DNA from: Candidatus Omnitrophota bacterium | GTDB taxonomy: Bacteria; Omnitrophota; Gorgyraeia; Zapsychrales; Zapsychraceae | DNA: 64,000 bases | Direction: 5' to 3' | Assembly: GCA_021108075.1 (NCBI GenBank) | Contig: JAIORP010000068.1 | Location: 74,594-138,593, forward strand | Shown here: piece by piece, positions 577-44,497 of the stretch | Layout of the letters: each line of letters begins with the position of its first letter | How positions within the stretch are numbered: the stretch's first letter is position 1 | Notes under the pieces: generated by a model | What the model was told of the DNA's origin: nothing | Database searches by the model: none | Seen by the model: only the letters and a program-made list of their open reading frames with translations | Translations under genes and position numbers: made by a program

Positions 577-702
577 CCCCATGACGGCGCAACTCTGCGC
601 AGACCCGAATTCCAGTGTGGTCTTCCCACAAGAACGGGGCGGTGTAACCTATACTGCGGATAAGAGGGACGTGTTCACTACTGCGATCCTATGTCTGTTA
701 TA

Positions 703-852
703 ATACCAATTCCATTAAATAATGACCGATGTTAATTTCGCGTTTCTCGACGCTTCAACGAGAAACGCACCATTCAAATTGAAGACTTTAATAAATGGAT
801 TTGGTATAAATTGCTCTATCTTAATTCTGAAAAGCAGAATTGGTTTTGGTAT
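703..852. repeat. Degenerate or nested copies of the ~82-bp MITE-like element. One is a reverse-orientation copy whose core is replaced by the hairpin cgtttctcg...cgagaaacg. It abuts a forward-orientation core fragment.
   Basis: Terminal motifs ataccaattccattaaataatgacc (703-727) and aataaatggatttggtat (790-807) match the ends of the element family. Positions 808-850 match the family core (ttctatcttaattctgaaaagcagaattgg). Confidence 0.6.
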
Positions 853-1029
853 CTCCTTCATGATTTCCTGCAATGGGATAAATGGAAAATTTTACTCCAG
901 GAGGCTGTCCGAGAATAAATTTTTTGTTCAGATCAAAGCGCGAGACGACAGAAAACCGCAGGTGTACATGTGTACGTTGAGGATTTTTTGGAGTTTTGCA
1001 ACGTAGAACTGAATAAAAAGATCATTCTC

Positions 1030-2875
1030 GGACAGCCTCCTAGGAGCTTGTCCGAGAACTAGTTATTTCAAAGGACAACCTTGTTAAAAAACATAAAAAT
1101 TTGCAGTTAAAGCATAATGCGTTTAAAAAATATTTTCAAAACTGTTCTTTGACATAATGACAAAGCTTTTTCGTTAATTTTATGCCAGTGCTGGGGCTAA
1201 TCTTCCTGATTTAATACATACCGCTCCTCTGAAAATAGCTCTGGCTATCTTTAAAAAGTTATGTGCCATGCAAACCAAGGAAAATTCTCCGGCAACTTTT
1301 GGTGAGCCACGTACACTAAACTGTCTAAAACCAGTATTCTTGATTTGTCCGAATACAGGTTCGACAATGTGTTTGCGGTTTTTGTAAATTTCACCAGAAG
1401 ATTTTTGTTTCATTTTTTCAATCATGGCTGCACGTAAATGTTCTTTATCATCAACTGTAATAATTCGGGGTTCACCTTTTTGGGATTTGCAACATCGGCT
1501 TTTAGCAGAGCAAACATTGCAATCATATTTGCTCGCTTGATAAATTTTTCTTCCATTGGCTCGTTCTCTTTTTAATGGCAATGAATGACCTTCTGGACAA
1601 GTAAAACAATCTGTTTGCTCGTTGTATTTAAAATCTGATTTTTCCAACTCATGGTCATCATTTCTTATCTCTAGCGTCGTTGTTTCTTTAGAACAAGCAA
1701 CATAAGCATCAACTTTGGATTCTTCTAAAATTTCAAGATTAGTGCCGGAAAAATAACCATTATCCAGGCTCATTTTTTCAGGAAGCGTCTCTGTGTTTTT
1801 CTGAATTTGACCAAGAGCTTCTGAAACTTCATTTTTATCATTTGCTTTTTGACTGACATGTTGCCCGACAATTATTTGATTATCTTCATCCACGCTGATT
1901 TGAGGATTGTAGTTATAATCGAATTGCCCCTTTTTTCCCATAATGCGTGCATCATGATCAGCAAAGCTAATTTGTTTTTTATCTTCAATATTTTTATTGG
2001 GATTAAGTTCTTGTTCTCGTTTTTCTAAGGCTTCTTTAGCAGCCGTAATCTTTTTAAGTCGTTTTTCTTTATGTTTAAGATCCTCCGGAATTTCATAGCC
2101 TGTTTGATCTTTGTATTGCTGATCTTCTTCTTCGTCGCATTTTGCAGCTTTTTCTATAAGTTTTTCGATTTCATTGGTTAGTTGCTTTTCTTGCTCTTTT
2201 AATCGTTTATAACTCATTGCTTTATGCTTAGAGGTATTCGCTTTAAATTTTGAACCGTCAAGACTAACATGGCCTAGCGATGCTAATCCAGCTTCTATGG
2301 CCAATTGTACACTTTGTTTAAAACATGCCTTAAAAAATGTTTTATTGTTTTTTCTAAAGTCACTTAAGACTCTAAAATCGGGTTTTTGTGCATGAGCGAT
2401 ATACATAAAACTTAGGTCTTCTTTATTCTTTTGCTGAATTTCTCGTGCGCTAAAAATGCCTTGGCTGTAAGCATAAATTAAGATAGATGTTAACAATCGG
2501 GGATCAAAGGCATGCTGACCTTGATCACTATAGTTTTTCATGAGTGAAGATGTATCTATTTGTTGAAATATATCCTCAAAAATGAAACAATAATGATCCT
2601 TGGATAACAGATTGAATATATTTGGAGGAAACAGCATACCCTGCTGATATTCTTCTGGATCTTTTTTAAAAGGAATGTTCATGTTTTCTCCTGAGTTCAA
2701 TGGAATAATTATCGAATTAAATGATTTATTATATCCTGTTTTATCGTCGAGGTAAACATCGATTTTGATTATATTCAATATTTTTAAACAACTTACGTGA
2801 TAAAAAAATCAATTTAGAAGTAACGGATTCTACAAATAAAAACTAGTTCTCGGACAAGCTCCTAGGAGGCCGTCC
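1030..2875 (-). mobile_element. Insertion sequence, IS5/IS1182-like, ~1.85 kb, with 35-bp terminal inverted repeats
   Basis: IRL at 1030-1064 (ggacagcctcctaggagcttgtccgagaactagtt) matches the reverse complement of IRR at 2841-2875 at 34 of 35 positions. Each IR is itself an imperfect palindrome centred on cctagg. A single transposase ORF lies inside. Confidence 0.7.
1180..2778 (-). CDS. DDE transposase, IS5/IS1182 family-like
   Basis: The 532-aa protein has a C-terminal block (HIVEPVFGQIKNTGFRQFSVRGSPKVAGEFSLVCMAHNFLKI) typical of IS1182/IS5-group transposases. It is Lys/Glu-rich in the middle and is flanked by the TIRs. Confidence 0.75.
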   Translation of the reverse strand: MNIIKIDVYLDDKTGYNKSFNSIIIPLNSGENMNIPFKKDPEEYQQGMLFPPNIFNLLSKDHYCFIFEDIFQQIDTSSLMKNYSDQGQHAFDPRLLTSILIYAYSQGIFSAREIQQKNKEDLSFMYIAHAQKPDFRVLSDFRKNNKTFFKACFKQSVQLAIEAGLASLGHVSLDGSKFKANTSKHKAMSYKRLKEQEKQLTNEIEKLIEKAAKCDEEEDQQYKDQTGYEIPEDLKHKEKRLKKITAAKEALEKREQELNPNKNIEDKKQISFADHDARIMGKKGQFDYNYNPQISVDEDNQIIVGQHVSQKANDKNEVSEALGQIQKNTETLPEKMSLDNGYFSGTNLEILEESKVDAYVACSKETTTLEIRNDDHELEKSDFKYNEQTDCFTCPEGHSLPLKRERANGRKIYQASKYDCNVCSAKSRCCKSQKGEPRIITVDDKEHLRAAMIEKMKQKSSGEIYKNRKHIVEPVFGQIKNTGFRQFSVRGSPKVAGEFSLVCMAHNFLKIARAIFRGAVCIKSGRLAPALA

Positions 2876-2983
2876 ATAAATGTCTAATGTTAAAACACGG
2901 GCACTTCTCAGGGACGTTTATTTTTTTTAATCACACATTGTTTTGTGATAAAATACGAATAAGTTTATTACATACCATCAATT

Positions 2984-3065
2984 ATACCAAATCCATTAAT
3001 AAATTGTTCTATCTTAATTCTGAAAAGCAGAATTGGGTTTGGTCATTATTTAATGGAATTGGTAT
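2984..3065 (+). repeat. MITE-like palindromic element, full 82-bp copy, forward orientation
   Basis: Sequence is ataccaaatccattaataaattgttctatcttaattctgaaaagcagaattgggtttggtcattatttaatggaattggtat. It has ~17-bp terminal inverted repeats, an internal palindrome, and no coding capacity. Confidence 0.8.
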
Positions 3066-3235
3066 TATCAGACATATCTGATAAGTGATATTGCAGGCTG
3101 AAAGTGGTTTATTGTGTCCGTCCCTCTGATAAAATTAGCATTTTTTATCTGAAAGTCGGAGGGTTAGTTTTTTTTAGTCCTGAAAGTTTTATAGGTACGT
3201 CGTAAATTAATTATTATGAAAAAAATCCTTGAGAT

Positions 3236-3769
3236 ATGAAGATAAAAGAGTCAGAGGCTCAGAAACTCAAAATTATTAGACAAGTTTTTGTGCTTGAACT
3301 CATTGCTTTTATTTCCGTTGGTGCATACTTGTACCTACTGTTTGGCCATTGTATTAATTTTGGCAGATGTATTCTTACAATTTTAATTTATATGATCCCT
3401 GCACAAATTCCACTTGCATTCATTGTTATTGTTTATCACAAATTGATCAACCCTCCTGTTGTTAAGGAAAAAGTGCTATATGATGAAACTAATAAATTGA
3501 ATCATACTTTGAATATCTTCACAAAAACGTTTTTAATAATTTTAAAATGGATAGGGAGTTATGTTTTGTCATTCATTGTTCTTTTTTATGTATGGGCTCT
3601 ATATTGTTTCCATTCTACAACAAGTGAAGCAGGACAAGCTATGGGATTAGTTATTGGTTTGATTTATATCCTTATTGGATTGACAATACTTTTTATTATA
3701 GTTGGTGTTTTGAAGTTTCAAAAAAATAAAAAATTTAAAACATTCCAGCGGACCCAGTCACCGCCCTGA
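3236..3769 (+). CDS. hypothetical multi-pass membrane protein
   Basis: Four to five hydrophobic helices. No known motif. Confidence 0.45.
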   Translation: MKIKESEAQKLKIIRQVFVLELIAFISVGAYLYLLFGHCINFGRCILTILIYMIPAQIPLAFIVIVYHKLINPPVVKEKVLYDETNKLNHTLNIFTKTFLIILKWIGSYVLSFIVLFYVWALYCFHSTTSEAGQAMGLVIGLIYILIGLTILFIIVGVLKFQKNKKFKTFQRTQSPP

Positions 3770-3820
3770 GGTCTTCGCCTGTGCCGCTGGTTTCAAGTGT
3801 TGGGCCTTTGACGTACTCAA

Positions 3821-4684
3821 GTGGAGATTGCTGCGATGACGATCAAAAAAAAGGATCGGAAGCTTTTAGAAGCCGTGAAAAAGGTGGGCTACCAAGAAGG
3901 CGAAACGTTTTTTGGCGGCAGAGCGGTAAACGATATCGGCCTTGAAACAGTTCAGTCTTTGATACGGAACGGGGCAAATGTCAATATGCAGGATGAGGGA
4001 AACGGGTCGACGCCATTGATTCACGCCATTCAAAATTGTAATTTTAAAATTGCCGATTTCCTTATAAGTTCAGGTGCTGATGTTAACCTGCCCAATCGAG
4101 CCGGAGTCTCCCCACTGCACATGGCCGCCATGGTCAGTACTAAAGCGGTATCATTTCTCCTTGAAAAGGGAGCCGATTACAGTTTAAAGACAAAAGACGG
4201 CGTTTCAATTATTGAATGGGCGGAACAAAATAATCTCACAGGCGCTATCGAGACGATAATGGCATGGAAGAATAGGCCCCAGAAGAAGAATAACCCCATG
4301 GGCTTTCTGAAGAAACTTTTTGGCAAAAGAAAAATCACGGAAAGGTCAGTCGACGCCAAACAGTCATCGCAAGGGGCGAAGAAGCTGCCAGATATATTTT
4401 GCGTTGTGACTGATGTGCCTGTGGAAGATCCCGGCGGAGTTGGGAACAGTGTTCTGGATAAGTATGACATAGAAATAGGCCTTGATACGGCTGTTTTGGT
4501 GGTATGCAATAACCGTGTGGTGTGTCAGGCTGAACCGGACCTTCCCTATTTTATGGCGATAGCAATGAGAATAGCAAAGGATAAAGGGTGGCCTCAGGAC
4601 AAAATTAATTATGATAAAATTGTCTGTCGCAGATTTATAATAGATTCGCCCCAAAGAACCAGGGGGTATATCATGACCGTTTAA
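3821..4684 (+). CDS. ankyrin-repeat protein
   Basis: Three to four ankyrin repeats (GANVNMQDEGNGSTPLIHAIQNCNFKIADFLISSGADVNLPNRAGVSPLHMAA...LLEKGADYSLKTKDG) followed by a ~150-aa region of unknown function. Confidence 0.75.
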   Translation: MEIAAMTIKKKDRKLLEAVKKVGYQEGETFFGGRAVNDIGLETVQSLIRNGANVNMQDEGNGSTPLIHAIQNCNFKIADFLISSGADVNLPNRAGVSPLHMAAMVSTKAVSFLLEKGADYSLKTKDGVSIIEWAEQNNLTGAIETIMAWKNRPQKKNNPMGFLKKLFGKRKITERSVDAKQSSQGAKKLPDIFCVVTDVPVEDPGGVGNSVLDKYDIEIGLDTAVLVVCNNRVVCQAEPDLPYFMAIAMRIAKDKGWPQDKINYDKIVCRRFIIDSPQRTRGYIMTV

Positions 4685-4811
4685 GGTGAATAAAGGCATT
4701 GGGTCGGTTTACATTCTTGTCAGATTTTTGAAATGCTATGAGTCTAGAGCCTCATGACAACTGCCCAACAAGACAATCCAGAGGACGTTTTGCAACTGCC
4801 GCTGATTTCAA

Positions 4812-5468
4812 GTGTTGGAGACAAAAAACATGAAACATATAAAAATATTTGTAATAATTATTACGATTTTATTCCTTGCTTCCTATTCATATTCACAGAT
4901 TGAACATTTCGAAATTGGTAAAAATTTAGAAATATCATCAAAATTAATAAAAAAAATTAAAGTTGTGCTTCCTGAGGATTGGAAGATTAAAATTCAGGAA
5001 CAAAAGTTGCGATTCGAAAGGAAGAAAACAATTTCAGCGGTAATCATCGCTCCGAGTATGCCGCCAGGACTTGTAAAACCAAATGAAATTTTATACTATT
5101 GCGTATTGGCAGTAACAGAATTTATATCACCAGATACATTTGCAAAAATAAATAAAAATAATCTAAGATTAGAGAAAGAAGCTGAGTTATTGTATCTCGA
5201 GAAAAAAATTTATGATATTCCAGCAAAAAAATTCAAAGCGCCACCGTGGGAATATGAATATTATCCACGCACACCTGAAGAGTCATCAATTGTCGAGAGA
5301 TACAAATATTTGTATTCTCAAATCCAAATACTCCCAGACTACTATTGTAATGATCAAAGCTTCTTCTTTTATCAGCAAAGATTAAAATATAAAAACGTTA
5401 ATGAAGAAAAAGAATGTAAAAAAATAACACAAAGAATACTAGAATTATTAAATAAATATGAAAAATAA
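4812..5468 (+). CDS. hypothetical secreted protein
   Basis: N-terminal signal peptide (MKHIKIFVIIITILFLASYSYSQ). Lys-rich. No known domain. The start may be the internal ATG at 4830. Confidence 0.5.
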   Translation: MLETKNMKHIKIFVIIITILFLASYSYSQIEHFEIGKNLEISSKLIKKIKVVLPEDWKIKIQEQKLRFERKKTISAVIIAPSMPPGLVKPNEILYYCVLAVTEFISPDTFAKINKNNLRLEKEAELLYLEKKIYDIPAKKFKAPPWEYEYYPRTPEESSIVERYKYLYSQIQILPDYYCNDQSFFFYQQRLKYKNVNEEKECKKITQRILELLNKYEK

Positions 5469-5720
5469 AAAATTTCTAATAAATCGCTCTACACCGACCA
5501 AATTTACCGCCTAAAAAGCGGCGTCAAATCTGGAGGGAGGGCTTAAATGTTAAACGAATATGAAGATCGACTGGACTAAATCCCAACGAATAGAGTAAAA
5601 AGTTCGTAGACGCTGTCCACATCGGCCTTGATATCGAGTTGTTAGGAATAAAACCCGGGCCGAGGTGATGGATTGGATTGAAAATATAAATACGGCAGGG
5701 TTATATTAATGTTGGAACTA

Positions 5721-5802
5721 ATACCAAATCCATTAACAAATTGTCCTATTTTAATTCTGAAAAGCAGAATTGGCTTTGGTCATTATTTAATGGAATTGGT
5801 AT
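5721..5802 (+). repeat. MITE-like palindromic element, 82-bp copy, forward orientation
   Basis: Near-identical to the copy at 2984-3065. Confidence 0.8.
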
Positions 5803-5877
5803 AAATGGGGATAGATAAGTTCCAGACAGCGTCCGCGAATGTTTGTGACGCTTGTTTCAGATAGCAAGGAGTTGACA

Positions 5878-6462
5878 ATGAATGTTCAAAAAAAATGGCT
5901 TATGTTTATGACTATTTGTGTATTGTTTTTTAGTGATCCTTTGAACGCTTCTGCCGACAGATGTGCGGATGTCTTTGATAAAGGCCATCAGAAATTTAAA
6001 GCAGCTAAAGAAGCAGGAGGGCAAAAAAAATATAACCAATCGATTCGACTTTATAAAGAGGCGCAACGGCACTATTGGCAGGCTTCAAACATGATGAATT
6101 GCAAATGTCCTAAACTCAATAAGACGGCCAAGAATAATGTTAATATATGTGATGGCAATATTGAGATAATGAAAAAGAATCTGAAGACTCAAACGAAGTA
6201 CCAAAAGAATTTGAATACCGAGGCCAAGGCCTATGATAAGTATAATAAAGCCCAACGGATATTTGAACAGGGCGATTCATTTGCCAAACGAAAGCAATGG
6301 TCTCGGGCGTATGAAGCATATCGGGAAGCGGCTATGCTTTGGGAGAGCGTTGCAATGACAAACCGATCTGAAAATGGACGGAAGGCCAGGCAAGCTGCCC
6401 GGCAAGCACGCGATCTCGCGAAAAAAGCCCGGCAGCAAAAACGTCAATCGTCTGGAAGGTAA
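5878..6462 (+). CDS. hypothetical secreted Lys/Ala-rich protein
   Basis: AAGGAG RBS 7 nt upstream of ATG 5878. Signal peptide MNVQKKWLMFMTICVLFFSDPLNASA. Basic coiled-coil-like C-terminus. Confidence 0.5.
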   Translation: MNVQKKWLMFMTICVLFFSDPLNASADRCADVFDKGHQKFKAAKEAGGQKKYNQSIRLYKEAQRHYWQASNMMNCKCPKLNKTAKNNVNICDGNIEIMKKNLKTQTKYQKNLNTEAKAYDKYNKAQRIFEQGDSFAKRKQWSRAYEAYREAAMLWESVAMTNRSENGRKARQAARQARDLAKKARQQKRQSSGR

Positions 6463-6489
6463 ATTAAAATGGTTCGAAAAAAATGGGGT

Positions 6490-6540
6490 ATCGCAGACGC
6501 TGTATTGATCAGTATGAGGTAGAATCACATGCGAATAAAA
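6490..6540 (+). repeat. Left copy of a ~50-bp direct repeat flanking the GC-rich island. It contains a TAGAAT hexamer and a conserved hairpin.
   Basis: tcgcagacgctgtattgatcagtatgaggtagaatcacatgcgaataaaat aligns with 7962-8014 at ~85% identity. The stem tcgca/tgcga covaries with ttcgta/tacgaa in the partner copy. Confidence 0.6.
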
Positions 6541-6698
6541 TGCGGGTGTCTCCCCGTCTATACGCCTGTCAGCGGCGTCAGGATTTCGATCGAGGATGGA
6601 ATTGTTTTGTGAGTCTGAGGGCAGATTGTCGCTGCGGACAGCGTCTGCACCAGAATTCGATAAAGAAATATTAAGATTGATCTAATCGAGGGGGCCTT

Positions 6699-7958
6699 AT
6701 GACTAATGAAACGTCAAGACAAACTTCGTCCAGTTCTGGTCCTACGATCTTTCAAGCCTTTATTTGGGGTTTCATGGTCGCGGCGTTTGGCTCACTCTTC
6801 GCCTTCATCGGGAGCCTGATAAGCGATAAACCCGTGCTGCCCCCGGCAGCTGATACCCTTCACGGTGCTTCCACGCCCGCAGAGATGAATCGGGTTGTCG
6901 ATACGCTCCTCTCGGTTGGGAATTTGGCGATCGAACATGATAGCGCGCTGGTCTTGAAGCTGGGATTTACCATCATTGCCTTGTGCGTTCTGACCGTTAT
7001 AGCCACGGTGTGGATCGTCACTCATCGGCGACAGCTTCAGCGCGCGTTGGTCCCGACGTGGCACACGGTGTTACTGATCCTGATGCTGGCTGTGCCGCCT
7101 ATCATCATCACCGTTGGGGCTTGTTTCATGAAAGGCAGCTTGTTCCAGTCTTCTGAGATATCCCACGCCCTGCAAAACGAGAACACTCGCCCGCCGGTCG
7201 TCCGGAAAGGGGCAATGGTAACGGTGCTTATCCCGACAACCTTGCAGTCGTTCTTTGCTTATCACAAGTGTGATTCGTTTAAAATAGAGCATGCCATGGC
7301 TGCGTTGCCCTCGGGTGAGCGCATACCCGTGACCCTGGCTGATGCCCGTTTCAATGACGGCGGACGCAAGCCCGGCAGTACCGACTTCATCCCGCTGATG
7401 GAAAATGTCAAGCTGCGCCTGCAGTTCACCTTGCCGGATGACCCTGAACTTTACGGTGCTGTGATCGACCTGGGCGTTTCCGGATCGCTTAACCTGATTC
7501 CCAGCAGTAGCAAAGAACCGACAGACCGCGAAAATTTCGACATGACAGCGCGTTTTCGTGTCGCGCGTGACCAGGAAGCGGATTTCCAGGAAGACTACGA
7601 TGCGCTTACGTCGAGAGTGACGCGCTACAACTGGTTCTCTTTCCCTTCGGCTGGGTTTGCGATCCTTGGGATCATATTTTTCAGCCCGTGGATGTGCCGG
7701 AAATGCCGTGGGCGGGTCAGCGCCTTCAAGATCAGGGAAGATCATCTTTGTCCGAAGTGCTTTGAAGAACGGCAGAAGGCTGCCGAGGTTAAGAAGAAGA
7801 CCGCTGCGAAAAAAATTTTTTCCGCGCCAGCCACTGACGATCCAAAAAAGCAAGCTGCGCAGAATGAGGCTTCAAAGCTTTCCTGTCCGAATGGTCACGG
7901 GCCCTTACGATTGTGGGATGGCAAACTAAAATGTTGGACCTGTGGGTGGGAGTCCTAA
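6699..7958 (+). CDS. hypothetical membrane protein with C-terminal zinc-ribbon motifs. GC-rich and probably horizontally acquired.
   Basis: GC ~55-58% against ~38% in the flanks. Three to four TM helices. Cys pairs CRKCRG...CPKCFEE and CPNGH...CWTCGW. Confidence 0.5.
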   Translation: MTNETSRQTSSSSGPTIFQAFIWGFMVAAFGSLFAFIGSLISDKPVLPPAADTLHGASTPAEMNRVVDTLLSVGNLAIEHDSALVLKLGFTIIALCVLTVIATVWIVTHRRQLQRALVPTWHTVLLILMLAVPPIIITVGACFMKGSLFQSSEISHALQNENTRPPVVRKGAMVTVLIPTTLQSFFAYHKCDSFKIEHAMAALPSGERIPVTLADARFNDGGRKPGSTDFIPLMENVKLRLQFTLPDDPELYGAVIDLGVSGSLNLIPSSSKEPTDRENFDMTARFRVARDQEADFQEDYDALTSRVTRYNWFSFPSAGFAILGIIFFSPWMCRKCRGRVSAFKIREDHLCPKCFEERQKAAEVKKKTAAKKIFSAPATDDPKKQAAQNEASKLSCPNGHGPLRLWDGKLKCWTCGWES

Positions 7959-7961
7959 AAC

Positions 7962-8014
7962 GTTCGTAGACGCTGAATTGATCTGAATGCGGTAGAATCA
8001 CATACGAACAAAAT
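7962..8014 (+). repeat. Right copy of the ~50-bp direct repeat flanking the GC-rich island
   Basis: gttcgtagacgctgaattgatctgaatgcggtagaatcacatacgaacaaaat. The same core (gacgctg...ttgatc...ggtagaatcacat.cgaa) is present in the left copy. Confidence 0.6.
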
Positions 8015-8270
8015 ATAGAATAAGGGGTCACAACTTGGCAACCAGACTATCTTTACTCAAAGACCTGGGCCAAAGAGAGCCTGAAAAATGTGGTAGAATA
8101 ACGCGTGAAAGAGCCAGAAATAAAGGAGTAATCACCATCACCCTATTCATTCGACCCCGCCCGTCAACCCCGGTCCTGGGGGGCTTTTATGCGAAAGATT
8201 CTCTTTTTTTGTTAGTCCTGAATTTTTTAATGGGAAAGTCGTGGATTAATTGTTTTATGGAAGAAATACA

Positions 8271-8981
8271 ATGAAAGATATCAATGTCATAAATATCAAC
8301 AGTACTAATTTTTATTTACTTAAATGTAAAGAAGGTTATTTGCTTATAGATGCCGGGTGGGTTGGTAAATATAATAATTTTAAAAAGGCGTTAAGCAGAC
8401 TTAATATTAGCATCGATTCCATAAAATTTATATTGATAACGCATCACCATCATGATCACACCGCTCTGGTTCAAGATATTCGTAAAGAAACCAAATGTAA
8501 AATTATCTTACATAAATATGAAACCGGTTATATTGAAAAAGGAATTACCTGTATCAATGAAACCAGGCAGTTCAATATTTATTTACGCTTACTGGACAGG
8601 GTCCTCTCTCCATTTATTAAATATGATTACACTCCAATAGCATTGAATGAATCTGACATAATCATCAATAATGGTCATTACAACATTTATGACCTTACAG
8701 GAATAAAAGGGGAAATATTCCATACGCCGGGACATTCAAAGGGTTCTATTTCATTGCTGTTGTCAAATGGAGACGCTTTCGTCGGGGATGTCGCGATGAA
8801 CATCTTAAAAGTGTTTGGTCATAAATATCGACCGGTTGAAGCGGAAGATTATAGTGAAATATATAAAAGCTGGGAGAAATTAATTCAATACGGCGCAAGA
8901 AATATATATCCTTCGCATGGTCATAAATTTTCTGTTGACGAATTGAGAAAATGTTTATCAGAAGAAAGAAAGTTTATATAA
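8271..8981 (+). CDS. MBL-fold metallo-hydrolase
   Basis: HxHxDH motif (ITHHHHDHTALV) plus downstream His/Asp ligands (HTPGHS, GDVA). A ggaag RBS lies before ATG 8271. Confidence 0.8.
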   Translation: MKDINVININSTNFYLLKCKEGYLLIDAGWVGKYNNFKKALSRLNISIDSIKFILITHHHHDHTALVQDIRKETKCKIILHKYETGYIEKGITCINETRQFNIYLRLLDRVLSPFIKYDYTPIALNESDIIINNGHYNIYDLTGIKGEIFHTPGHSKGSISLLLSNGDAFVGDVAMNILKVFGHKYRPVEAEDYSEIYKSWEKLIQYGARNIYPSHGHKFSVDELRKCLSEERKFI

Positions 8982-8991
8982 TAATGGGATA

Positions 8992-9054
8992 ATACCAATT
9001 TTATTAAATAATGACCGGCATCGAAATAGAACAATGAATAAATGGATTTGGTAT
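8992..9054 (-). repeat. MITE-like element, internally deleted copy (63 bp), reverse orientation
   Basis: Both terminal inverted repeats are retained (ataccaattttattaaataatgacc ... aataaatggatttggtat). Confidence 0.6.
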
Positions 9055-9124
9055 AAACACGGAATTGAAAAAACGGACGATTTTTTAAACCGTTTATTCG
9101 GGGGGGTAAACGAGAAAATAAAAT

Positions 9125-9592
9125 ATGAAATTTGAAATAAAACAAATCGGAACCATCCGTTCTCCATACAAAAGTAAAAAGGAATGCCCGATTCAAGGAG
9201 GCATCAAACCCGGAGGAATAGGCGGAATAGAGATATTCCCGGAATATGAAGAAGCATTGGAAACAATAGAAACATTTTCACATATCATACTATTGTATAT
9301 ATTTGACAGGGCGGATGAAATAAAATTATCCGGACCGACTTTCCTTGATGACGCTTTCCATGGAGTCTTCGCCTCCCGTCACCCCTGCAGGCCGAATGGA
9401 ATTGGAATCTCTATAGTAAAATTAGAAAAAAGAAACAAAAATATTTTAGAAGTCAGCGAAATAGACGTTTTAGACAATACGCCGCTTGTTGACATAAAAC
9501 CATATATTCCAAGATTTGATTATCGGGAAAATGCTAACAATGGTTGGACTGAAATAAAAAAAATACGTGAGAAACCGTCAGGTCGAGAATAA
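9125..9592 (+). CDS. TsaA/YaeB-family (TrmO-like) SAM-dependent methyltransferase domain protein
   Basis: IGTIRSPYKSKKECPIQGG ... FASRHPCRPNGIGISIVKL ... DVLDNTPLVDIKPYIP fits the TsaA-like fold signature (N-terminal RSP...P.Q motif). Confidence 0.7.
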   Translation: MKFEIKQIGTIRSPYKSKKECPIQGGIKPGGIGGIEIFPEYEEALETIETFSHIILLYIFDRADEIKLSGPTFLDDAFHGVFASRHPCRPNGIGISIVKLEKRNKNILEVSEIDVLDNTPLVDIKPYIPRFDYRENANNGWTEIKKIREKPSGRE

Positions 9593-10491
9593 GATAAAAA
9601 TTTGTAACACATGCACGGTTCCCGTTGTTAGGGAGAAAGACTTCCCTGGCGAAGATTTTCAATGATTTTTTATAGTTGTAAAGAATTTATTTCATTAACG
9701 CGTTTTTGTGTTTTTAGATGTTTCGGGATGCGGGAAGCCTATTGAGAGAATCACACCCGGATCTCTCAATAGTAATTTTCAATTTATTTTATTTGACCCC
9801 CGGTTGATGGATACAAAATAATAGATTTATTCCTTGTCGAATATCAGCCATTTTCCTGAATAATAAGAATGGAAAGAACAGCTGTTTCTTTTTTTAGGAT
9901 AAAACGCTTGATTCCGGTCAAAGGACATGATTGAATACGTATATATCAAATATCAAAATTTAAGAATAATATCAGGGAAGTGGTGCTTTTGTGTTTTTTA
10001 AATTACCAGGGAATGCGCTGGTTTTTTTAATATAGCTGATCCTGAAGAGCGACTAAAATGCTTGAAACAGTTAAAGTTAAGTTAAAAAACATGGTATGGT
10101 TTGCAAGAACACGACGGGAAAAAAAGGAAAACCCGCAAGATAAAACCACAAAAAATAAATGCGATTTATAGTGCGACCTGTTTAAAATCGAGTTAATTCG
10201 GATCATTGATCCGAATCATCCGCTGGCAAATCTGATGAAACAAATAACGGCTCAGCATTTGATCAACGATTTGAGAAGCATTTTGCGGATGAAGGACGGC
10301 CAGCGAGCTCGAAACGATTGATGGTCAGTTTATATTATTTGGTCGGTCCTGAAAAAGCCTGTTTTTAGGCTGTCAGGATCATCTGCTTTAGTAACAGACA
10401 TATGCCGTAACCGGAATGAGATAAAATTTATTTAATTCAGGTCATGGCGCGTGTCTGACATTTATAACCCGGATTTCTTTTGGAGGATAAC

Positions 10492-13400
10492 ATGAAAAGG
10501 TTTATTTACTTATCCCTGATTTCCCTGTTGATGCTTCCGTCCTTACATCATCAAACAGTTTATGCTAAAGAAGAGATGACGCAAGGGATCGGTCAAGAGC
10601 GGCAGGATCGCGGGAATGACTCTCAGTTCAGCATTCAAGAAATTTATGTTCCTTATGAAAATTTGAATGAGGCTTTACAAAAAAAAGAGAAGGGTGTTTT
10701 GATCCCGTATTCTGATTTTTTGCGCTTATGGGAGAAAGCGTCTAAAAAGCCGCCGTCAAAGGCTCCTCCGGTTCCCCCCGTGGACGCGGCTATCATTCAC
10801 TCGGAATACAAGGGAAAGGTTCTTGATGATATTGCCGAGTTTGAAGCGGAACTGAAAATTTCCGCCTTAAAAGAAAAATGGGCTAAATTACATTTAAATA
10901 TAAAAGATATCGCGATTACATCCTTATCTCTTAACGGGAAAACTCCTCTTTTGAAACCGGTTAAAGGGGGATTAGAACTGATCCTGCCGGAAAAAGGTGA
11001 GTATATTCTTAAAGTGAATTTTTCCGCGCAAGTCAATACGTCTCCCGGAGAAAAATTCATCCATTTCCGCGTCCCGTCATCACCTCTTACCAAAATAGAT
11101 ATGACTGTTCCCGGCAAAGATTTAGATGTTAAAATTGAGCCGATGCTTTCTAAGAAAAGTAATGTCGACGGAGATAATACGAAATTCTCCGCGTTTCTCG
11201 CTCCGGGAGGCGATGTGAATATCCGGTGGTTAGCGAAAACAACGGACACGAAAGTAACCAGGAGTCTTATCTTCGCGAAATTATTGAATGAAGTGAATAT
11301 TAAAGAATCTGTTTATTTAATCAACACAAAAATTAATTTTTCGATTATGCAGGCGGAAACAGATTCCTTCCAGGTCAAGATTCCCAAAGCGTTAAGTCTT
11401 GTCCGCGTGGATGGAAAAAACATTAAAGATTGGGAAATGAGTGAAGAGGGGGTCCTAACGGTTAACCTCTATGAAAAAATAGACGGTCAGTATATTCTTT
11501 CTGTGAGCACGGAAAAATACCGTGATTTAGAAGAGAACTCTTTTGAAATCCCTCAGTTTGAAGTGCTTAATGCCAAGAGAGAAGAGGGGGAAATTATTAT
11601 TAAAGCCGAACCGTCTTTACGCGTTCAGGTTGAGAAAAAAGACCGCGTCACACAAATTGATCCGAAAGAACTTCAAGGCCGGGTGACATTTAATGAACTT
11701 GTCTCAGCTTTTAAATATTTTCGACGTCCCTTTCATGTCAGTTTAAATATTTCTAAAATTCAGCCTAAAATTACCGCTGAACAGAATGTTTTTATTTCTT
11801 TTTCTGAAACAATTATTGATTATTACACGAATGTAAAATTTACGGTAAAGGACGCGGGGTTGTTTAAGTTCAGATTTATTATTCCGGATAATTTTAGAAT
11901 CGTTGAGGTCGGATCAGATCAAACGGTTGATAGCTTTGATGTTTCTAAAGAAAAGGATCAGAATATTTTAACTGTTATTTTGAAGAATAAAGCTTACGCC
12001 AATTTTTTGTTACCGATTCATCTGGAAGCCGATAAGGAGGATAAGGATGTTGTGTTGGCTTTGCCGAAAGTTCAATGTTTAGACGCGGAAAAGGAAGAGG
12101 GGATTATTACTCTTTCTCTTCGTAAAAATCTTAAATTATCGACGGACGATATGAAATCTTTGCGTCCGATCAGTCTGGAAGAATTAAAGTCCCAGGGGAC
12201 AAGAGATCCGGATATCAAGAATGAGATAGCAGCAGGTTATCGCTACGCGACACCGGATTATTCCTGTCGTTTGAAAATTGATAAAAGAAAGACAAAAATT
12301 ATCGCGAGTGTTGAACGGAATATTGATGTTGAAGAAGCTGTCATGAAAATTAATGATGTTATCCGTTACAATATTTTATACGCTCCGACAAGTTTGTTCC
12401 GGATAGAGCTTCCTGCCGCGATCGCGAAAGACGTTATTATCAGCGGGAACAATATTAAGGAAAAACGGCTGGCCGTTAATGAAGAAATTCAAAAAGGCGT
12501 TTGGACCATTGAACTTCATTCTCCGACGCTGAATAATTTTGATTTAAATGTTAGTTTCGAAAAGAAACTTCCGTCGATCAAGACAGGAGATGAAAGAATA
12601 ATTGAGGTGCCGGGGATCAGGGTCATTGATGTTTTTAATGAGACCGGGTATATCTCAGTATCGAAAAGTCCTGATCTTCAGGTTGAAGCTAAAGAAAAGA
12701 ATTTAGATCCCGTGGATTCAAAAGAAATTCCTGCCGCTATGAATCGTAGCCAGAGTGTGCTCGCTTTTAGATATTTAAGTCATCCGTACGCGCTTTCTCT
12801 GGAAACGACGAAACATGAGTATGAAAAAATATTGGATGCTGTTGTTAATCAAGCTCATTTTGATATTGTTGTTTCTAATGAAGGTGTCGCGAAAACAGAA
12901 GGGGTTTTCAGAATACAAAATACCAACCGGCAGAGTCTTGAGTTGACCATGCCGGAAGGAATAGATAAAATTTATTCTGTTTTTATTTCCGGTAAAAAAG
13001 CGGGTATATCAAAGGGGGGTTCGGATAGAAGTAAAATTATTATGTTGCCTAAAGATATCGCGCCGGGTAAAGAATTCACGTTGAGAATTATTTATCAAAC
13101 CCAGATAAAATCTAAATTTGGATTCTGGGGCGGACTTCACGTGAAAGGCGCGGAGATTATGGATATTCCCTGTTCGAAGATTACCTGGAGGCTGTATCTT
13201 CCGAATGAATACAGTTATCTGTATTTAAAAGGTTCCATTAATCCCGGCAGAGATGAGCATCGCGCTTATAATCATGTTAATGCTGCTGTGCAATCCCGAC
13301 GGGTCCATCATCAAACAAAAATTAATTTAACCCGTAATCAGATTCCTCAGCAAACAGATGAAGGGACTCTTTACGGCTTAGATATTGAGATGGTCCGGGA

Positions 13401-13764
13401 GGGTCGAATGTTTTCTTTCTCTAAGTTGGATAAAAATGCTTATTTAAATGTGTGTTATCTGAAGAAAAACATTATGTTTCCCTTAAGCATTATTATTGTG
13501 GTCCTGTCAACGTTTTATTTTATAACCCTGACGCAAAGAAAAGATCCGAATAAAACTAAAATGACTTGTGCTATTATCGGAGCGGTGATTGCGTTATATG
13601 TTATTCTGCCTCAAGGGTTTAAACATTTTATGTTTTTGATGCTGGTGGGGGTTGTTTTTTCCGGGGTTGTTTTGGTTATTCAAGCTTATCGGAAGAAAAA
13701 GAAAATGGGTTTAAATGCAGAAACAAACTGTAAAACTTCCGTTCAAAAAGAGAAGAAAATTTAA
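10492..13764 (+). CDS. giant-protein module 1: secreted ~1090-aa protein of unknown family with a C-terminal 3-TM anchor
   Basis: GGAGG RBS before ATG 10492. Signal peptide MKRFIYLSLISLLMLPSLHHQTVYA. Three hydrophobic helices in the last ~100 aa. Shares motifs (GVLIPY, RYF.RPF, TW..Y.PNEYSYLYL) with the downstream giant ORF. Confidence 0.85.
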   Translation: MKRFIYLSLISLLMLPSLHHQTVYAKEEMTQGIGQERQDRGNDSQFSIQEIYVPYENLNEALQKKEKGVLIPYSDFLRLWEKASKKPPSKAPPVPPVDAAIIHSEYKGKVLDDIAEFEAELKISALKEKWAKLHLNIKDIAITSLSLNGKTPLLKPVKGGLELILPEKGEYILKVNFSAQVNTSPGEKFIHFRVPSSPLTKIDMTVPGKDLDVKIEPMLSKKSNVDGDNTKFSAFLAPGGDVNIRWLAKTTDTKVTRSLIFAKLLNEVNIKESVYLINTKINFSIMQAETDSFQVKIPKALSLVRVDGKNIKDWEMSEEGVLTVNLYEKIDGQYILSVSTEKYRDLEENSFEIPQFEVLNAKREEGEIIIKAEPSLRVQVEKKDRVTQIDPKELQGRVTFNELVSAFKYFRRPFHVSLNISKIQPKITAEQNVFISFSETIIDYYTNVKFTVKDAGLFKFRFIIPDNFRIVEVGSDQTVDSFDVSKEKDQNILTVILKNKAYANFLLPIHLEADKEDKDVVLALPKVQCLDAEKEEGIITLSLRKNLKLSTDDMKSLRPISLEELKSQGTRDPDIKNEIAAGYRYATPDYSCRLKIDKRKTKIIASVERNIDVEEAVMKINDVIRYNILYAPTSLFRIELPAAIAKDVIISGNNIKEKRLAVNEEIQKGVWTIELHSPTLNNFDLNVSFEKKLPSIKTGDERIIEVPGIRVIDVFNETGYISVSKSPDLQVEAKEKNLDPVDSKEIPAAMNRSQSVLAFRYLSHPYALSLETTKHEYEKILDAVVNQAHFDIVVSNEGVAKTEGVFRIQNTNRQSLELTMPEGIDKIYSVFISGKKAGISKGGSDRSKIIMLPKDIAPGKEFTLRIIYQTQIKSKFGFWGGLHVKGAEIMDIPCSKITWRLYLPNEYSYLYLKGSINPGRDEHRAYNHVNAAVQSRRVHHQTKINLTRNQIPQQTDEGTLYGLDIEMVREGRMFSFSKLDKNAYLNVCYLKKNIMFPLSIIIVVLSTFYFITLTQRKDPNKTKMTCAIIGAVIALYVILPQGFKHFMFLMLVGVVFSGVVLVIQAYRKKKKMGLNAETNCKTSVQKEKKI

Positions 13765-13783
13765 AACACGGGAAACAAGGATT

Positions 13784-21790: not shown

Positions 21791-21956
21791 GTTTTTTTGA
21801 TCCTTTTTATTTAATGCCGCGTTTCAGGGGACATTATCAAGAATTGTGTCTCTTTTTTTTTGATGTTTGGCCAACGTCACTTCCTGATGGGTCATTTATA
21901 AAGGATATTATAAAATACGAAATCAGTCAGTTTTTGGCGCGCTCGTTCTATTGATA

Positions 21957-22038
21957 ATACCAATTCCAGTAAATAATGACCAAAACCAATTTTGCTTTTC
22001 AGAATTAAGATAAAACAATTTATTAATGGATTTGGTAT
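21957..22038 (-). repeat. MITE-like palindromic element, 82-bp copy, reverse orientation
   Basis: ataccaattccagtaaataatgaccaaaaccaattttgcttttcagaattaagataaaacaatttattaatggatttggtat. Confidence 0.8.
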
Positions 22039-22316
22039 AAGATATGTTCATAAGAGTAAAGAAGAAATTATAATATTTTTTGTTTAGACGCGTCCGGTAT
22101 TCTCAGCCGGATTAGCGGGATCCCCAAAAGTTTTTTAATCAGAAATTTTTGAAAATTAGCGCCAACAGTTCTTGAAGCAGTAAGTACAACGGGTGTGAGC
22201 CCGTGGGAAGCTATTCAGTCATTTTTATTGCAAAATTTGGGTTGAATGTCAGGTTTAAAATTATGGTAGTGAATAAAAACAACATTTATCAAAAAGAAAA
22301 AATACTGGAAGCAAGA

Positions 22317-22766: not shown

Positions 22767-22830
22767 CCATTTTTTGCGTCTGAAAAACGGCAGGTGACCT
22801 TTGTGTTGTACGGATAAAAAAAGGAAAAAA

Positions 22831-24649: not shown

Positions 24650-25237
24650 ATGCACACAGTACTGAATAGAAATATTTTCTTCGTTAAAGAACACGTAGGA
24701 ATGTTCAAGGCAGCCAATAATTATGATATCTATGACCCCGACACCGAGTCGGTCATCATGGAGTGCCGAGAGGACCGACTGGGCATTCTGACCAGGATTT
24801 TAAGGTTCACAGACTACAAGCGAATGACCCCGTTTGATATACAGATCAGGACTCCGGAAGGACAGCAGGTCATTCGTGTGAAGAGGGGAATATCGTTGTT
24901 TCTGTCGAAGGTGCAGGTTCTGGATGAAAATGATCATGTCATCGGTATGTTTAAGCAGAAGTTTTTCTCGTTAGGTGGAGCCTTTACGGTACTCGACGCC
25001 AGTGAAAACCCGGTGTGCCAACTCAAAGGTAAATGGACGGGATGGGACTTTAAGTTTTTGGACGGTGAAACTGAACTGGCGCATGTTACTAAAAAGTGGG
25101 CGGGAATAGGTAAGGAGTTTTTTACCAGCGCGGATAACTATGTGTTGCAGATTTCAGACTGCGTGCCTACCGATGATGTGGCACGGTACCTGATCGTTGC
25201 CGCTGTAATGTGTATTGACATGGTATTAAAAGAATAG
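24650..25237 (+). CDS. tubby C-terminal-like / LURP-one-related (DUF567-like) protein
   Basis: ~195 aa with a pattern of alternating beta strands (FDIQIRTPEGQQVIRVKRGISLFLSKVQVLDENDHVIGMFKQKFFSLGGAFTVLD...) that resembles the scramblase/LURP1 fold. The assignment is tentative. Confidence 0.4.
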   Translation: MHTVLNRNIFFVKEHVGMFKAANNYDIYDPDTESVIMECREDRLGILTRILRFTDYKRMTPFDIQIRTPEGQQVIRVKRGISLFLSKVQVLDENDHVIGMFKQKFFSLGGAFTVLDASENPVCQLKGKWTGWDFKFLDGETELAHVTKKWAGIGKEFFTSADNYVLQISDCVPTDDVARYLIVAAVMCIDMVLKE

Positions 25238-26364: not shown

Positions 26365-26418
26365 AATTTATGACGGAGAGCAGAAGATGCGCGGAGATTT
26401 TCGGAAAAAGCGTTATTA

Positions 26419-26500
26419 ATACCAATTCCATTAAATAATGACCAAAACCAATTCTGCTTTTCAGAATTAAGATAGAACAATTTATTAATGGATTTGGTAT
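26419..26500 (-). repeat. MITE-like palindromic element, 82-bp copy, reverse orientation
   Basis: ataccaattccattaaataatgaccaaaaccaattctgcttttcagaattaagatagaacaatttattaatggatttggtat. Confidence 0.8.
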
Positions 26501-26613
26501 AAAGAAGAACCGGGCGATGTGATGGCATAAAGACAAAATGTTGTGATATCGCCCCGTAGAGATTGATATAAGGCAAAGGATAAATAAGGAACATTTTAAA
26601 TAGGGGGAAGATC

Positions 26614-44470: not shown

Positions 44471-44497
44471 TAATTGAATCTTTAAAAAAGAGTGATC

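What the first reader, a model, noticed from the sequence alone, without database searches (positions are those of the whole stretch)
6470..8200. A GC-rich foreign gene is bracketed by ~50-bp direct repeats that carry a covarying hairpin
The 6699-7958 gene and its flanks are ~55-58% GC in a ~38% GC context. The gene encodes a membrane protein with zinc-ribbon motifs. The island is bounded by direct repeats at 6490-6540 and 7962-8014 (~85% identical, both containing ggtagaatcacat). The outer stem of each repeat differs between the two copies, but in a compensatory way: tcgca…tgcga in one copy and ttcgta…tacgaa in the other. That argues for selection on a folded structure such as a recombination site, an attC-like hairpin, or an RNA element. 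The core gacgctgt also occurs as an 11-bp inverted pair (6492-6502 / 6638-6648) and again at 5603-5619 and 5823-5855 upstream of the neighbouring gene.
Basis: seen in the sequence. Interest (0 to 1): 0.6.

Follow-up and report, generated by a model that had tools for sequence, protein, structure and literature searches.

The report
Local junction repeats flanking a foreign gene
A horizontally acquired membrane-protein gene in an uncultured Omnitrophota genome sits between two copies of a small, locally clustered intergenic repeat, which looks more like a recombination junction than the folded, covarying hairpin first proposed.

Summary
The 419-aa gene (6699-7958) has 54% GC and 63% GC3, against 42.7 +/- 3.7% GC for 31 other genes in the window. 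It lies between 51-nt direct repeats (6491-6541 and 7964-8014, 86% identical). The covarying hairpin is not supported: it rests on one compensatory pair, fold z-scores are +0.17 and -1.06, and a four-copy test is matched by 278 of 500 shuffles.

The repeats belong to a four-copy family that shares an invariant 12-nt core, TCGYAGACGCTG. All four copies lie within about 9 kb and have the same orientation. Two copies also have an inverted core 135-210 nt downstream. I found no copies in the other 56 kb or in the public collections scanned. Homologues of the gene in five other genomes have no such repeats.

Two results are new. A second GC-outlier gene (ankyrin, 3836-4684) is flanked by its own unique 22-nt direct repeat. 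Copy E3 is a mosaic: it matches E1 to the left of the core and E2 to the right.

There are no canonical attC sites, tRNA genes, Rfam matches or recombinases in the window; the only mobility gene is an IS1182 transposase. My best reading is att-like junction repeats of a small cassette-like variable region (confidence about 0.4). Decayed MITE and shared-promoter readings remain open. Interest is modest.

The parts
6699..7958 (+). 419-aa gene, a horizontally acquired orphan membrane protein. It has N-terminal TM helices, an Ig-like beta-sandwich at about residues 170-290, a further TM helix, and one conserved plus one variable zinc ribbon.
   Evidence: GC 54.0% and GC3 0.63. No Pfam, NCBIfam or PADLOC family. 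16 homologues, the best at 70-73% identity. 44 clusters among 1.84e9 representatives. AF2 pLDDT 76.7. No PDB fold match with E < 0.03.
6491..6541 (+). Left direct repeat, the A-module of element E2 (core TCGCAGACGCTG plus right arm). It starts 29 nt after the stop codon of the 194-aa gene.
   Evidence: (nhmmer E = 1.8e-16).
7964..8014 (+). Right direct repeat, the A-module of element E3 (core TCGTAGACGCTG plus right arm). Its 8-nt left arm, TAAAACGT (7956-7963), supplies the TAA stop codon of the 419-aa gene.
   Evidence: E = 8.7e-15; mosaic: matches E1 on the left and E2 on the right.
5597..5664 (+). A-module of element E1, upstream of the 194-aa gene. It shares the left arm and core with E3 (19 of 20 nt) and has GAATAAAA at the same offset. 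Its right arm is diverged.
   Evidence: D9, D20; E = 1.4e-14.
5825..5844 (-). Inverted copy of the core that closes element E1. It forms a 20-nt inverted repeat, 80% complementary, with 5598-5617.
   Evidence: I3.
6637..6648 (-). Inverted copy of the core that closes element E2. GCAGACGCTGT / ACAGCGTCTGC form 11 exact pairs with 6493-6503. Element E2 therefore spans about 6491-6648 (158 nt).
   Evidence: (I4).
5721..5802 (+). An 86-nt MITE-like palindromic element nested inside E1. It belongs to a different, dispersed repeat family.
   Evidence: TIR TACCAAATCCATTAA, flanking TAA/TAA.
5878..6462 (+). 194-aa secreted or membrane-anchored orphan gene. It is the single-gene unit between E1 and E2.
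   Evidence: no paralogy with its neighbours.
8066..8176 (+). Module C, a second repeated intergenic block downstream of E3's A-module. It contains an extended -10-like TGTGGTAGAAT and is 85% identical to a block after the serine-hydrolase gene in the alternative assembly (L001 5701-5816).
3782..3803 (+). Left copy of a 22-nt direct repeat (TGCCGCTGGTTTCAAGTGTTGG) flanking the ankyrin gene.
   Evidence: z = 9.5; only two copies in the window; 0.01 expected.
4797..4818 (+). Right copy of the 22-nt direct repeat (21 of 22 identical), 11 nt upstream of the start of the 212-aa gene.
3836..4684 (+). Ankyrin-repeat gene at 44.9% GC, between genes of 31% and 28% GC. It is the second DR-flanked compositional outlier.

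Best explanation
The two 51-nt repeats are members of a small, locally confined family of intergenic junction elements, which I call E0 to E3. Each element starts within 6-136 nt after the stop codon of one gene and runs towards the start of the next. All four share an invariant 12-nt core, TCGYAGACGCTG. E1 and E2 end with an inverted copy of that core about 135-210 nt downstream. The elements separate unrelated single genes of very different base composition, in a variable segment of an Omnitrophota genome that also holds an IS element and MITEs.

The most likely history is as follows. The 419-aa gene came from a higher-GC donor lineage. It was placed here by recombination at such an element, either a Campbell-type single crossover or a site-specific-like exchange within or next to the core, and this left one element copy on each side, as with attL and attR.

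Shown: the repeats, the family, its clustering, the foreign composition of the gene, the mosaic structure of E3, and the second DR-flanked outlier gene. Inferred: that the repeats are products or substrates of recombination, and which enzyme acts on them (unknown, and not encoded in this window). The proposed covarying hairpin is not needed for this explanation and is not supported.
For: - There are four full copies, at L001:1096-1161 (2.2 kb upstream of the window), 5597-5664, 6486-6550 and 7957-8021, with nhmmer E = 1e-14 to 1e-16. No other hit in the remaining 56 kb has E < 0.09.
- All copies are on the + strand, the same orientation as the genes. The genes they separate are not paralogues.
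- These genes differ strongly in GC: 28%, 41.5%, 54% and 32.5%.
- A flank test on 40 genes found significant up/downstream direct repeats only for the IS transposase, the ankyrin gene (22 nt, z = 9.5) and the 419-aa gene (51 nt, z = 22). The last two are the two GC-richest genes of the local segment (Fisher p = 0.0013).
- At sites where E1 and E2 differ, E3 matches E1 at 8 of 8 sites up to the end of the core and matches E2 at 19 of 20 sites after it (p = 2.9e-6).
- Homologues of the gene in five other genomes have neither the motif nor flanking repeats, so the repeats belong to the recipient locus.
- DNA homology to those homologues starts at the start codon, or 13 nt upstream of it.
- The sequence is identical in independent assemblies of four samples, so it is not an assembly artefact.
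Against: - No integrase or recombinase is encoded in the 64-kb window or in the 3.3 kb upstream of it.
- The two copies are only 86% identical, so they are either old or were never identical.
- The core shows no dyad symmetry of the kind seen in tyrosine-recombinase core sites (read directly from the sequence).
- The ankyrin-gene repeat has a different sequence, so a single site-specific system cannot explain both events.
- E1's right arm is diverged but still in register (ATC, GAATAAAA). The mosaic pattern could therefore reflect uneven divergence plus a duplication that simply began at the core.
- No empty site or excision product could be examined. The relatives available are at most 68% identical in a neighbouring protein and are not syntenic.
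- Only about 67 kb of this genome could be read.
Confidence: 0.4

Rival explanations
1. E elements are decayed copies of a non-autonomous mobile element (MITE, Correia-like or REPIN-like). Full copies (E1, E2) are about 160 nt with 11-20-nt terminal inverted repeats; E0 and E3 are truncated. On this reading, the bracketing of the GC-rich gene is an accident of several copies landing in neighbouring intergenic regions.
For: - E1 and E2 have inverted cores at both ends (I3/I4) and are collinear over about 160 nt once the nested 86-nt element is removed.
- The genome clearly tolerates such elements. A different 86-nt MITE occurs 8 times in the window with TTA/TAA duplications, and an IS1182 is present.
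- With 4 of about 8 local intergenic regions occupied, two copies flanking one gene is not surprising.
Against: - No target-site duplication flanks E1 or E2 (read directly from the sequence).
- All four copies lie within 9 kb and none in the other 56 kb, roughly (9/67)^3 = 0.002 under random placement. The real MITE, by contrast, is dispersed.
- All copies share one orientation.
- Pattern scans of GTDB species genomes, JGI metagenomes and IMG/VR gave only single, chance-level hits.
- This reading does not explain the separate 22-nt repeat around the ankyrin gene.
Confidence: 0.22
2. E elements are a shared cis-regulatory module for a few co-regulated envelope or secreted-protein genes. The module would combine an operator, a promoter and a 5' leader. 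The 12-nt core would be a protein-binding site, and the inverted second core in E1 and E2 an auxiliary operator or a leader stem.
For: - Every copy lies upstream of a gene and is co-oriented with it: LamG-domain protein, 194-aa, 419-aa and MBL hydrolase.
- Conservation is concentrated in a 12-nt block.
- E2, E3 and module C share ATGnGGTAGAAT, which resembles a -10 element and in module C an extended -10 (D2).
- E0 is 100% conserved in a second strain that is 97.6% identical overall, although its immediate flanks are equally conserved.
Against: - The sigma-70 scan finds no promoter in any A-module.
- The best -35-like hexamer (TAGACG) lies 20 nt from TAGAAT, and E0 and E1 lack TAGAAT (read directly from the sequence).
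- E2 and E3 are 86% identical across 51 nt, which points to recent common descent rather than motif constraint alone.
- Three of the four cores lie 6-34 nt after the previous stop codon and 130-307 nt from the next start codon, at no fixed distance.
Confidence: 0.2
3. One reading: each 51-nt repeat folds into a hairpin, as ssDNA or RNA, that is kept by selection (attC-like, IS200/IS605-end-like, or an RNA element).
For: There is one compensatory change (C-G in E2, U-A in E3) in a 5-6-bp stem. 83% of stem cells are paired across the four copies, against 25-46% for slid controls.
Against: - Fold z-scores are +0.17 and -1.06 on the + strand and -0.34 and -0.22 on the - strand. The whole elements E2, E3 and E0 give z = -1.45, +0.42 and -0.63.
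- 278 of 500 shuffles equal the observed covariation.
- E0 and E1 each carry a mismatch in the stem, and the stem closes a 34-nt loop.
- There are no canonical attC core sites.
- There is no Rfam hit.
- There is no HUH transposase in the window.
Confidence: 0.08
4. The repeats are functionless scars. They would be short duplications created by illegitimate or microhomology-mediated insertion of foreign DNA, and neither substrates for further recombination nor regulatory.
For: - Two different repeat sequences (51 nt and 22 nt) flank the two outlier genes.
- No recombinase is nearby.
- The copies have drifted to 86% identity.
Against: The same core recurs at E0 and E1 and as inverted copies, which a one-off scar does not explain.
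Confidence: 0.1

Closest known systems
Integron gene-cassette arrays and CALINs (clusters of attC sites lacking an integrase)
   Same: Unrelated single ORFs are co-oriented, differ in base composition, and are separated by related elements of about 50-160 nt with imperfect inverted ends. Each element begins just after a stop codon. One element is a mosaic of two others, as expected when exchange occurs at a conserved core. No integrase is nearby, as in CALINs.
   Different: There are no R''/R' core sites (RYYYAAC / GTTRRRY) on either strand. The apparent exchange point is at the 5' end of the element, so each unit would carry its element upstream of its ORF rather than downstream. There are only 2-3 units. 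E0 and E3 lack the second inverted end. No IntI was found.
Recombinase-associated acquired interbacterial defence arrays (rAID-1) of Bacteroidales (bioRxiv 10.1101/471110)
   Same: [quoted passage not shown] Here too there are small orphan genes, including an ankyrin-repeat protein.
   Different: rAID-1 is defined by a conserved XerD-family tyrosine recombinase at the head of the array and by homology to immunity genes. Neither was found here, and this is a different phylum with a different repeat sequence.
attL/attR direct repeats of integrated elements, and Campbell-type duplication of a short homology
   Same: A compositionally foreign insert is bounded by direct repeats of tens of nucleotides. 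The hybrid left/right arm pattern is centred on a common core.
   Different: The insert carries a single cargo gene and no integrase. The repeats are only 86% identical. There is no tRNA or tmRNA target. Further copies of the same site lie nearby.
Correia/NEMIS-type MITEs and REP/REPIN elements
   Same: They are intergenic, about 150 nt long with terminal inverted repeats, able to form a long hairpin in read-through transcripts, and may carry promoter-like sequences.
   Different: This family is low-copy and tightly clustered. It has no target-site duplication. The GTAG head is not conserved (GTAG, GCAG and GCGG all occur). No RAYT or parent IS was seen.

Membership tests
Integron attC site / cassette array | Conserved core sites R'' (RYYYAAC) and R' (GTTRRRY) at the two ends of a 50-200-nt element | tested here: not met
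   A regex scan of both strands of window 2800-9700 found 0 pairs.
Integron attC site / cassette array | Imperfect inverted repeats at the element ends that fold into a hairpin | tested here: inconclusive
   E1 (20 nt, 80% complementary) and E2 (11 exact pairs) have inverted cores. E0 and E3 do not. The fold z-score is significant only for E1, which also contains a palindromic MITE.
Integron attC site / cassette array | IntI tyrosine recombinase with attI next to the array (absent in CALINs) | tested here: not met
   No recombinase domain was found among the ORFs of the window scanned against Pfam or NCBIfam (40 of the 44 of 150 aa or more), or among the called genes of L001 3.3 kb upstream. 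The rest of the genome could not be reached.
rAID-1-like array | XerD-family recombinase heading an array of orphan immunity genes | tested here: not met
   No recombinase was found (same calls). No PADLOC or NCBIfam immunity-family hit was found apart from generic ankyrin matches.
rAID-1-like array | Repetitive intergenic sequences and skewed GC between co-oriented genes | tested here: met
MITE | Terminal inverted repeats | tested here: met
   Met for E1 and E2 only (I3, I4).
MITE | Target-site duplication and dispersed multicopy distribution | tested here: not met
   No direct duplication abuts the inverted repeats (read). The four copies lie within 9 kb and none lies in the other 56 kb. No copy was found in the collection scans.
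REP/REPIN (RAYT-associated) | Conserved GT[AG]G head, short GC-rich palindrome, high copy number, RAYT gene | tested here: not met
   The head varies (GTAG x3, GCAG x2, GCGG x1). The family is low-copy. There is no Y1 transposase in the window (Pfam scans).
IS200/IS605-type ends | Tight subterminal hairpins at both ends in direct orientation, flanking tnpA/tnpB | tested here: not met
   The proposed stem is 5-6 bp and closes a 34-nt loop, with z about 0. The cargo is a membrane protein with no Pfam hit.
Known structured RNA (Rfam) | Covariance-model match | tested here: not met
   No hit at gathering score in the window, and none at E <= 1 in 5400-8400.
tRNA/tmRNA-derived att site | The repeat is the 3' part of a tRNA or tmRNA gene adjacent to the island | tested here: not met
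   ARAGORN found 0 genes in the window and in L001 1-4000.
DGR template/variable repeat | Mismatches confined to adenines of one copy; reverse transcriptase nearby | tested here: not met
   The seven mismatches are C/T, T/A, A/T, T/A, A/C, G/A and T/C. No RT domain was found in the Pfam scans.

The most novel reading that the evidence does not exclude
Omnitrophota may carry a non-integron cassette system. In it, single genes, including ones captured from distant higher-GC bacteria, would travel with a roughly 150-nt element placed 5' of the ORF. They would be inserted, excised or shuffled by a recombinase encoded elsewhere in the genome that exchanges strands at the 12-nt core TCGYAGACGCTG. 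E1-194aa-E2-419aa-E3 would be a short array of such cassettes, and E3 a hybrid site left by such an exchange.
Probability: 0.15. Interest if true: 0.65.

Novelty: new variant of a known kind. Interest (0 to 1): 0.3.

Why it matters
If the junction reading holds, it would be a concrete example of how very small, host-dependent Omnitrophota genomes take up and arrange foreign single genes without a recognisable integron. It would also supply a defined 12-nt core that can be searched for in complete genomes and in read data. If it does not hold, the locus is an ordinary variable region holding an IS element, MITEs and a few paralogous intergenic segments. In either case, the feature that made the finding attractive, a hairpin under compensatory selection, does not stand.

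Tried and rejected
- Covarying hairpin: rejected on folds and on the pair-count test.
- Canonical attC: rejected.
- Known RNA family: none found.
- tRNA-derived att site: none found.
- DGR TR/VR: the mismatch pattern is wrong.
- Tandem gene duplication as the source of the shared flanks: rejected, because the flanked proteins show no similarity to each other.
- A conserved multi-gene island travelling with the 419-aa gene: rejected. Neighbours of the homologues are unrelated, and DNA homology is confined to the CDS.
- Sigma-70 promoter inside the repeat: not detected. The partial resemblance of GCGGTAGAATC to the enterobacterial ops element GGCGGTAGnnTG (recalled from memory) is 7-8 of 10 specified positions over a very short motif. 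I treated it as chance.
- Search for the repeat elsewhere: scans of GTDB genomes, JGI metagenomes and IMG/VR with TCGYAGACGCTGNNNNNATCNNNATG returned 21, 43 and 3 single hits. All scored 20.5 bits or less against the family profile, against 50-56 bits for true copies. These scans need exact pattern matches, so diverged copies would be missed.
- Empty-site comparison: not possible. The nearest relatives of the neighbouring 1090-aa protein are at most 68% identical and not syntenic upstream. A second strain (97.6% identity) was available only for the E0 region.
- Function of the 419-aa protein: no family, no PDB fold match, and no match in plasmids or phages.
Full report
**Source.** The window comes from a Candidatus Omnitrophica MAG. 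The 419-aa protein is NCBI K8S27_04720 and lies on ENA ERZ26872899 NODE_2, 168,659 bp. The same DNA was assembled independently from other samples: SRR32473238 is 100% identical over 12.2 kb, and ERZ26872904 and SRR32473237 are 99.9-100% identical. The features are therefore not assembly artefacts.

**Observation.**
- Gene 6699-7958 has 54.0% GC and GC3 0.63. The window is 41.2% GC, and 31 other + strand genes average 42.7% (sd 3.7, maximum 48.8) with GC3 0.455 (sd 0.063).
- GC3 is uniformly high along the CDS, 0.59-0.65.
- The neighbouring genes are themselves unusually AT-rich: the 212-aa gene is 28%, the 177-aa gene 31% and the MBL gene 32.5%. The whole 3-9 kb segment is compositionally patchy.
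The two intergenic regions are 45.8% and 41.7%. The GC-rich 3' third of the upstream 194-aa gene reflects an Ala/Arg-rich tail, with GC1/GC2 of 0.62/0.55 and GC3 of 0.45.
- The direct repeats are real: 6491-6541 and 7964-8014, 51 nt, 86% identical. Their flank-alignment score lies 22 sd above shuffles.
- The other occurrences of the core are also real: 5604 (+), 5827-5838 (-) and 6637-6648 (-).

**The hairpin.**
- The stems TCGCA/TGCGA and TTCGTA/TACGAA exist and differ by one compensatory pair.
- The 61-nt repeats fold no better than dinucleotide shuffles, with z = +0.17 and -1.06 on the + strand and -0.34 and -0.22 on the - strand. The MFE fold of the first copy does not use the proposed stem.
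- The family has four members (see the next section). On their alignment the stem has 83% of cells paired, one pair with a change on both sides, and mismatches in E0 and E1. 278 of 500 column shuffles do as well.
- The whole elements E2, E3 and E0 give z = -1.45, +0.42 and -0.63. Only E1 is significant (z = -5.1), and it contains a nested palindromic MITE and a 20-nt inverted repeat.
- There is no Rfam family match at gathering score in the window, or at E <= 1 in 5400-8400.
- I conclude that the case for selection on this hairpin is not made.

**What the repeats belong to.**
- A profile built from the copies finds four full members: E0 at L001:1096-1161 (2.2 kb upstream of the window), E1 at 5597-5664, E2 at 6486-6550 and E3 at 7957-8021, with E = 1e-14 to 1e-16. 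Nothing else in the remaining 56 kb scores better than E = 0.09 apart from the two inverted cores.
- All four share an invariant 12-mer, TCGYAGACGCTG, followed by ATC five nucleotides later and an A-rich block about 40 nt downstream.
- In E1 and E2 an inverted core closes the element 135-210 nt downstream. With the nested 86-nt element removed, E1 is about 161 nt and E2 is 158 nt, and the two are collinear.
- E0 and E1 also share a 3' block, GCAGGRTT..GTTGGAACT.
- The cores of E0, E2 and E3 start 34, 29 and 6 nt after the preceding stop codon. In E3 the left arm, TAAAACGT, supplies the stop codon of the 419-aa gene.
- The genes that follow the four elements are a LamG-domain protein, the 194-aa orphan, the 419-aa protein and an MBL-fold hydrolase. 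They are unrelated to each other.
- Part of the region after E3 (module C, 8066-8176) recurs, 85% identical, after a serine-hydrolase gene in the alternative assembly.

**Two results that bear on mechanism.**
1. I aligned the 250 nt upstream of each of 40 genes of the window with the 250 nt downstream. Only three genes give a significant direct repeat: the IS1182 transposase (through its own palindromic ends), the ankyrin gene 3836-4684 and the 419-aa gene. The ankyrin repeat, at 3782-3803 and 4797-4818, is 22 nt with 21 of 22 identical and z = 9.5, and it is unique in the window. The ankyrin gene and the 419-aa gene are the two GC-richest genes in the AT-rich local segment (2 of 2 against 0 of 37, Fisher p = 0.0013).
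2. E3 is a mosaic. At alignment sites where E1 and E2 differ, E3 agrees with E1 at 8 of 8 sites in the left arm plus core, and with E2 at 19 of 20 sites to the right (p = 2.9e-6). A switch of partner at a short conserved core is what recombination at that core would leave. As a caveat, E1's right arm is still in register with the others, so uneven divergence plus a duplication that began at the core could give a similar picture.

**The gene.**
- The word-indexed search finds only 16 relatives. The best are 70-73% identical, and one is labelled Pseudomonadota. An exhaustive profile search finds 44 clusters among 1.84 billion representatives.
- In five homologue loci the neighbours are unrelated and there is no E motif or flanking repeat.
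- DNA similarity begins at the start codon, or 13 nt before it, and ends near codon 367.
- In 62-64% GC hosts the homologue has the host GC. In a roughly 42% GC context it again stands out at 54%. The gene is therefore foreign here, and the repeats belong to the recipient locus.
- The AF2 model (pLDDT 76.7) shows N-terminal TM helices, an Ig-like beta-sandwich, another long helix and zinc ribbons. C333, C336, C351 and C354 are invariant.
- There is no PDB fold match with E < 0.03, no Pfam, NCBIfam or PADLOC family, and no plasmid or phage match.
- One relative replaces the zinc-ribbon tail with ankyrin repeats.

**Comparison with known systems.**
- Integron attC: the region 2800-9700 has no RYYYAAC...GTTRRRY pair 50-200 nt apart on either strand. 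No integrase was found among the 40 of the window's ORFs of 150 aa or more that were scanned against Pfam or NCBIfam, or among the Pfam-annotated genes called 3.3 kb upstream. The only mobility gene is an IS1182 transposase, 1180-2778 (-), NCBIfam E = 8.6e-120.
- tRNA-derived att: there are no tRNA genes.
- MITE: E1 and E2 have terminal inverted repeats, but there are no target-site duplications and the family is clustered rather than dispersed. The true MITE in this window behaves differently.
- REP/RAYT and IS200/IS605 ends: the defining features are not met.
[quoted passage not shown] Here the recombinase is missing from view.

**Distribution.** Exact-pattern scans of GTDB species genomes, JGI metagenomes and IMG/VR returned only single hits at about the number expected by chance. 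All scored 20.5 bits or less on the family profile, against 50-56 bits for the true copies. This MAG's own contig is not in those collections. Relatives of the neighbouring 1090-aa protein are at most 68% identical and not syntenic upstream. No orthologous empty site could therefore be examined, and only about 67 kb of the genome could be read.

**Verdict.**
- The repeats are real, non-random and flank a truly foreign gene, but the hairpin argument fails.
- The best-supported reading (about 0.4) is that they are att-like junction elements of a small cassette-like variable region, where unrelated genes were inserted or exchanged by recombination at or next to a 12-nt core. The enzyme is unknown.
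- A decayed local MITE-like family (about 0.22), a shared regulatory module (about 0.2), functionless insertion scars (about 0.1) and the original hairpin idea (about 0.08) remain as rivals.
- The evidence is thin: four copies in one MAG, with no population or expression data. I therefore rate interest as modest.

Noticed in passing
window 700-850, 2982-3067, 5721-5802, 8989-9057, 21955-22040, 26417-26502, 44325-44478, 61211-61317: An abundant MITE-like palindromic element of about 86 nt (longer variants reach 105-155 nt). Its terminal inverted repeats are TACCAAATCCATTAA / TTAATGGAATTGGTA, and complete copies are flanked by TTA or TAA on both sides. There are eight copies in 64 kb, all intergenic, and one is nested inside element E1. 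It was not found in the other fetched loci or in IMG/VR.
   Followed up: partly
window 810-2980 versus L001 4206-6282: This is a structural variant between assemblies of the same organism. The window carries an IS1182-family element here (transposase 1180-2778 on the - strand; 45-nt inverted ends at 1023-1067 and 2838-2882). The ENA contig instead carries a 362-aa serine-hydrolase (Beta-lactamase family) gene followed by a copy of module C. Both junctions fall at copies of the 86-nt MITE.
   Followed up: partly
window 3782-3803 and 4797-4818: A unique 22-nt direct repeat (21 of 22 identical) brackets the ankyrin-repeat gene, which has 45% GC and sits between genes of 31% and 28% GC. The last 10 codons of the upstream 177-aa gene are also GC-rich (GC3 0.70), so the left boundary of the insertion may lie inside that gene.
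   Followed up: partly
window 3165-3235 and 8205-8270: The roughly 70 nt just upstream of the 177-aa gene and of the MBL gene are visibly similar (TTAGTCCTGAA...GTCGT..ATTAATT..TATG). This is another shared proximal upstream module between unrelated genes.
   Followed up: no
window 8035-8274: The 79-aa ORF called as a gene in the public annotation starts with TTG and overlaps the MBL start. It lies across repeat modules C and D and is probably not a real gene.
   Followed up: no
L001 1257-1456 versus L073: In a second strain (97.6% identical overall), divergence is concentrated in the first roughly 200 nt of the LamG-domain gene just downstream of E0 (84-87% identity, and the gene is interrupted). 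E0 and the end of the upstream gene are 100% identical.
   Followed up: partly
P0079; L085 7023-9050: Two observations on relatives of the 419-aa protein. One carries C-terminal ankyrin repeats in place of the zinc ribbons. A distant one (38% identical) ends a four-gene cluster that sits next to bpX4 and bpMoxR genes. Both hint at a membrane scaffold with exchangeable cytoplasmic modules, possibly in a conflict system.
   Followed up: no
window 10492-21790, 22801-24054, 24650-25237, 34430-35062: There is a conserved pair of giant genes (1090 aa and about 2670 aa) with no Pfam hit for the 1090-aa protein. The pair is kept together in relatives at 65-68% identity. It is followed by eukaryote-like genes (serpin, scramblase, MORN repeats).
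   Followed up: no
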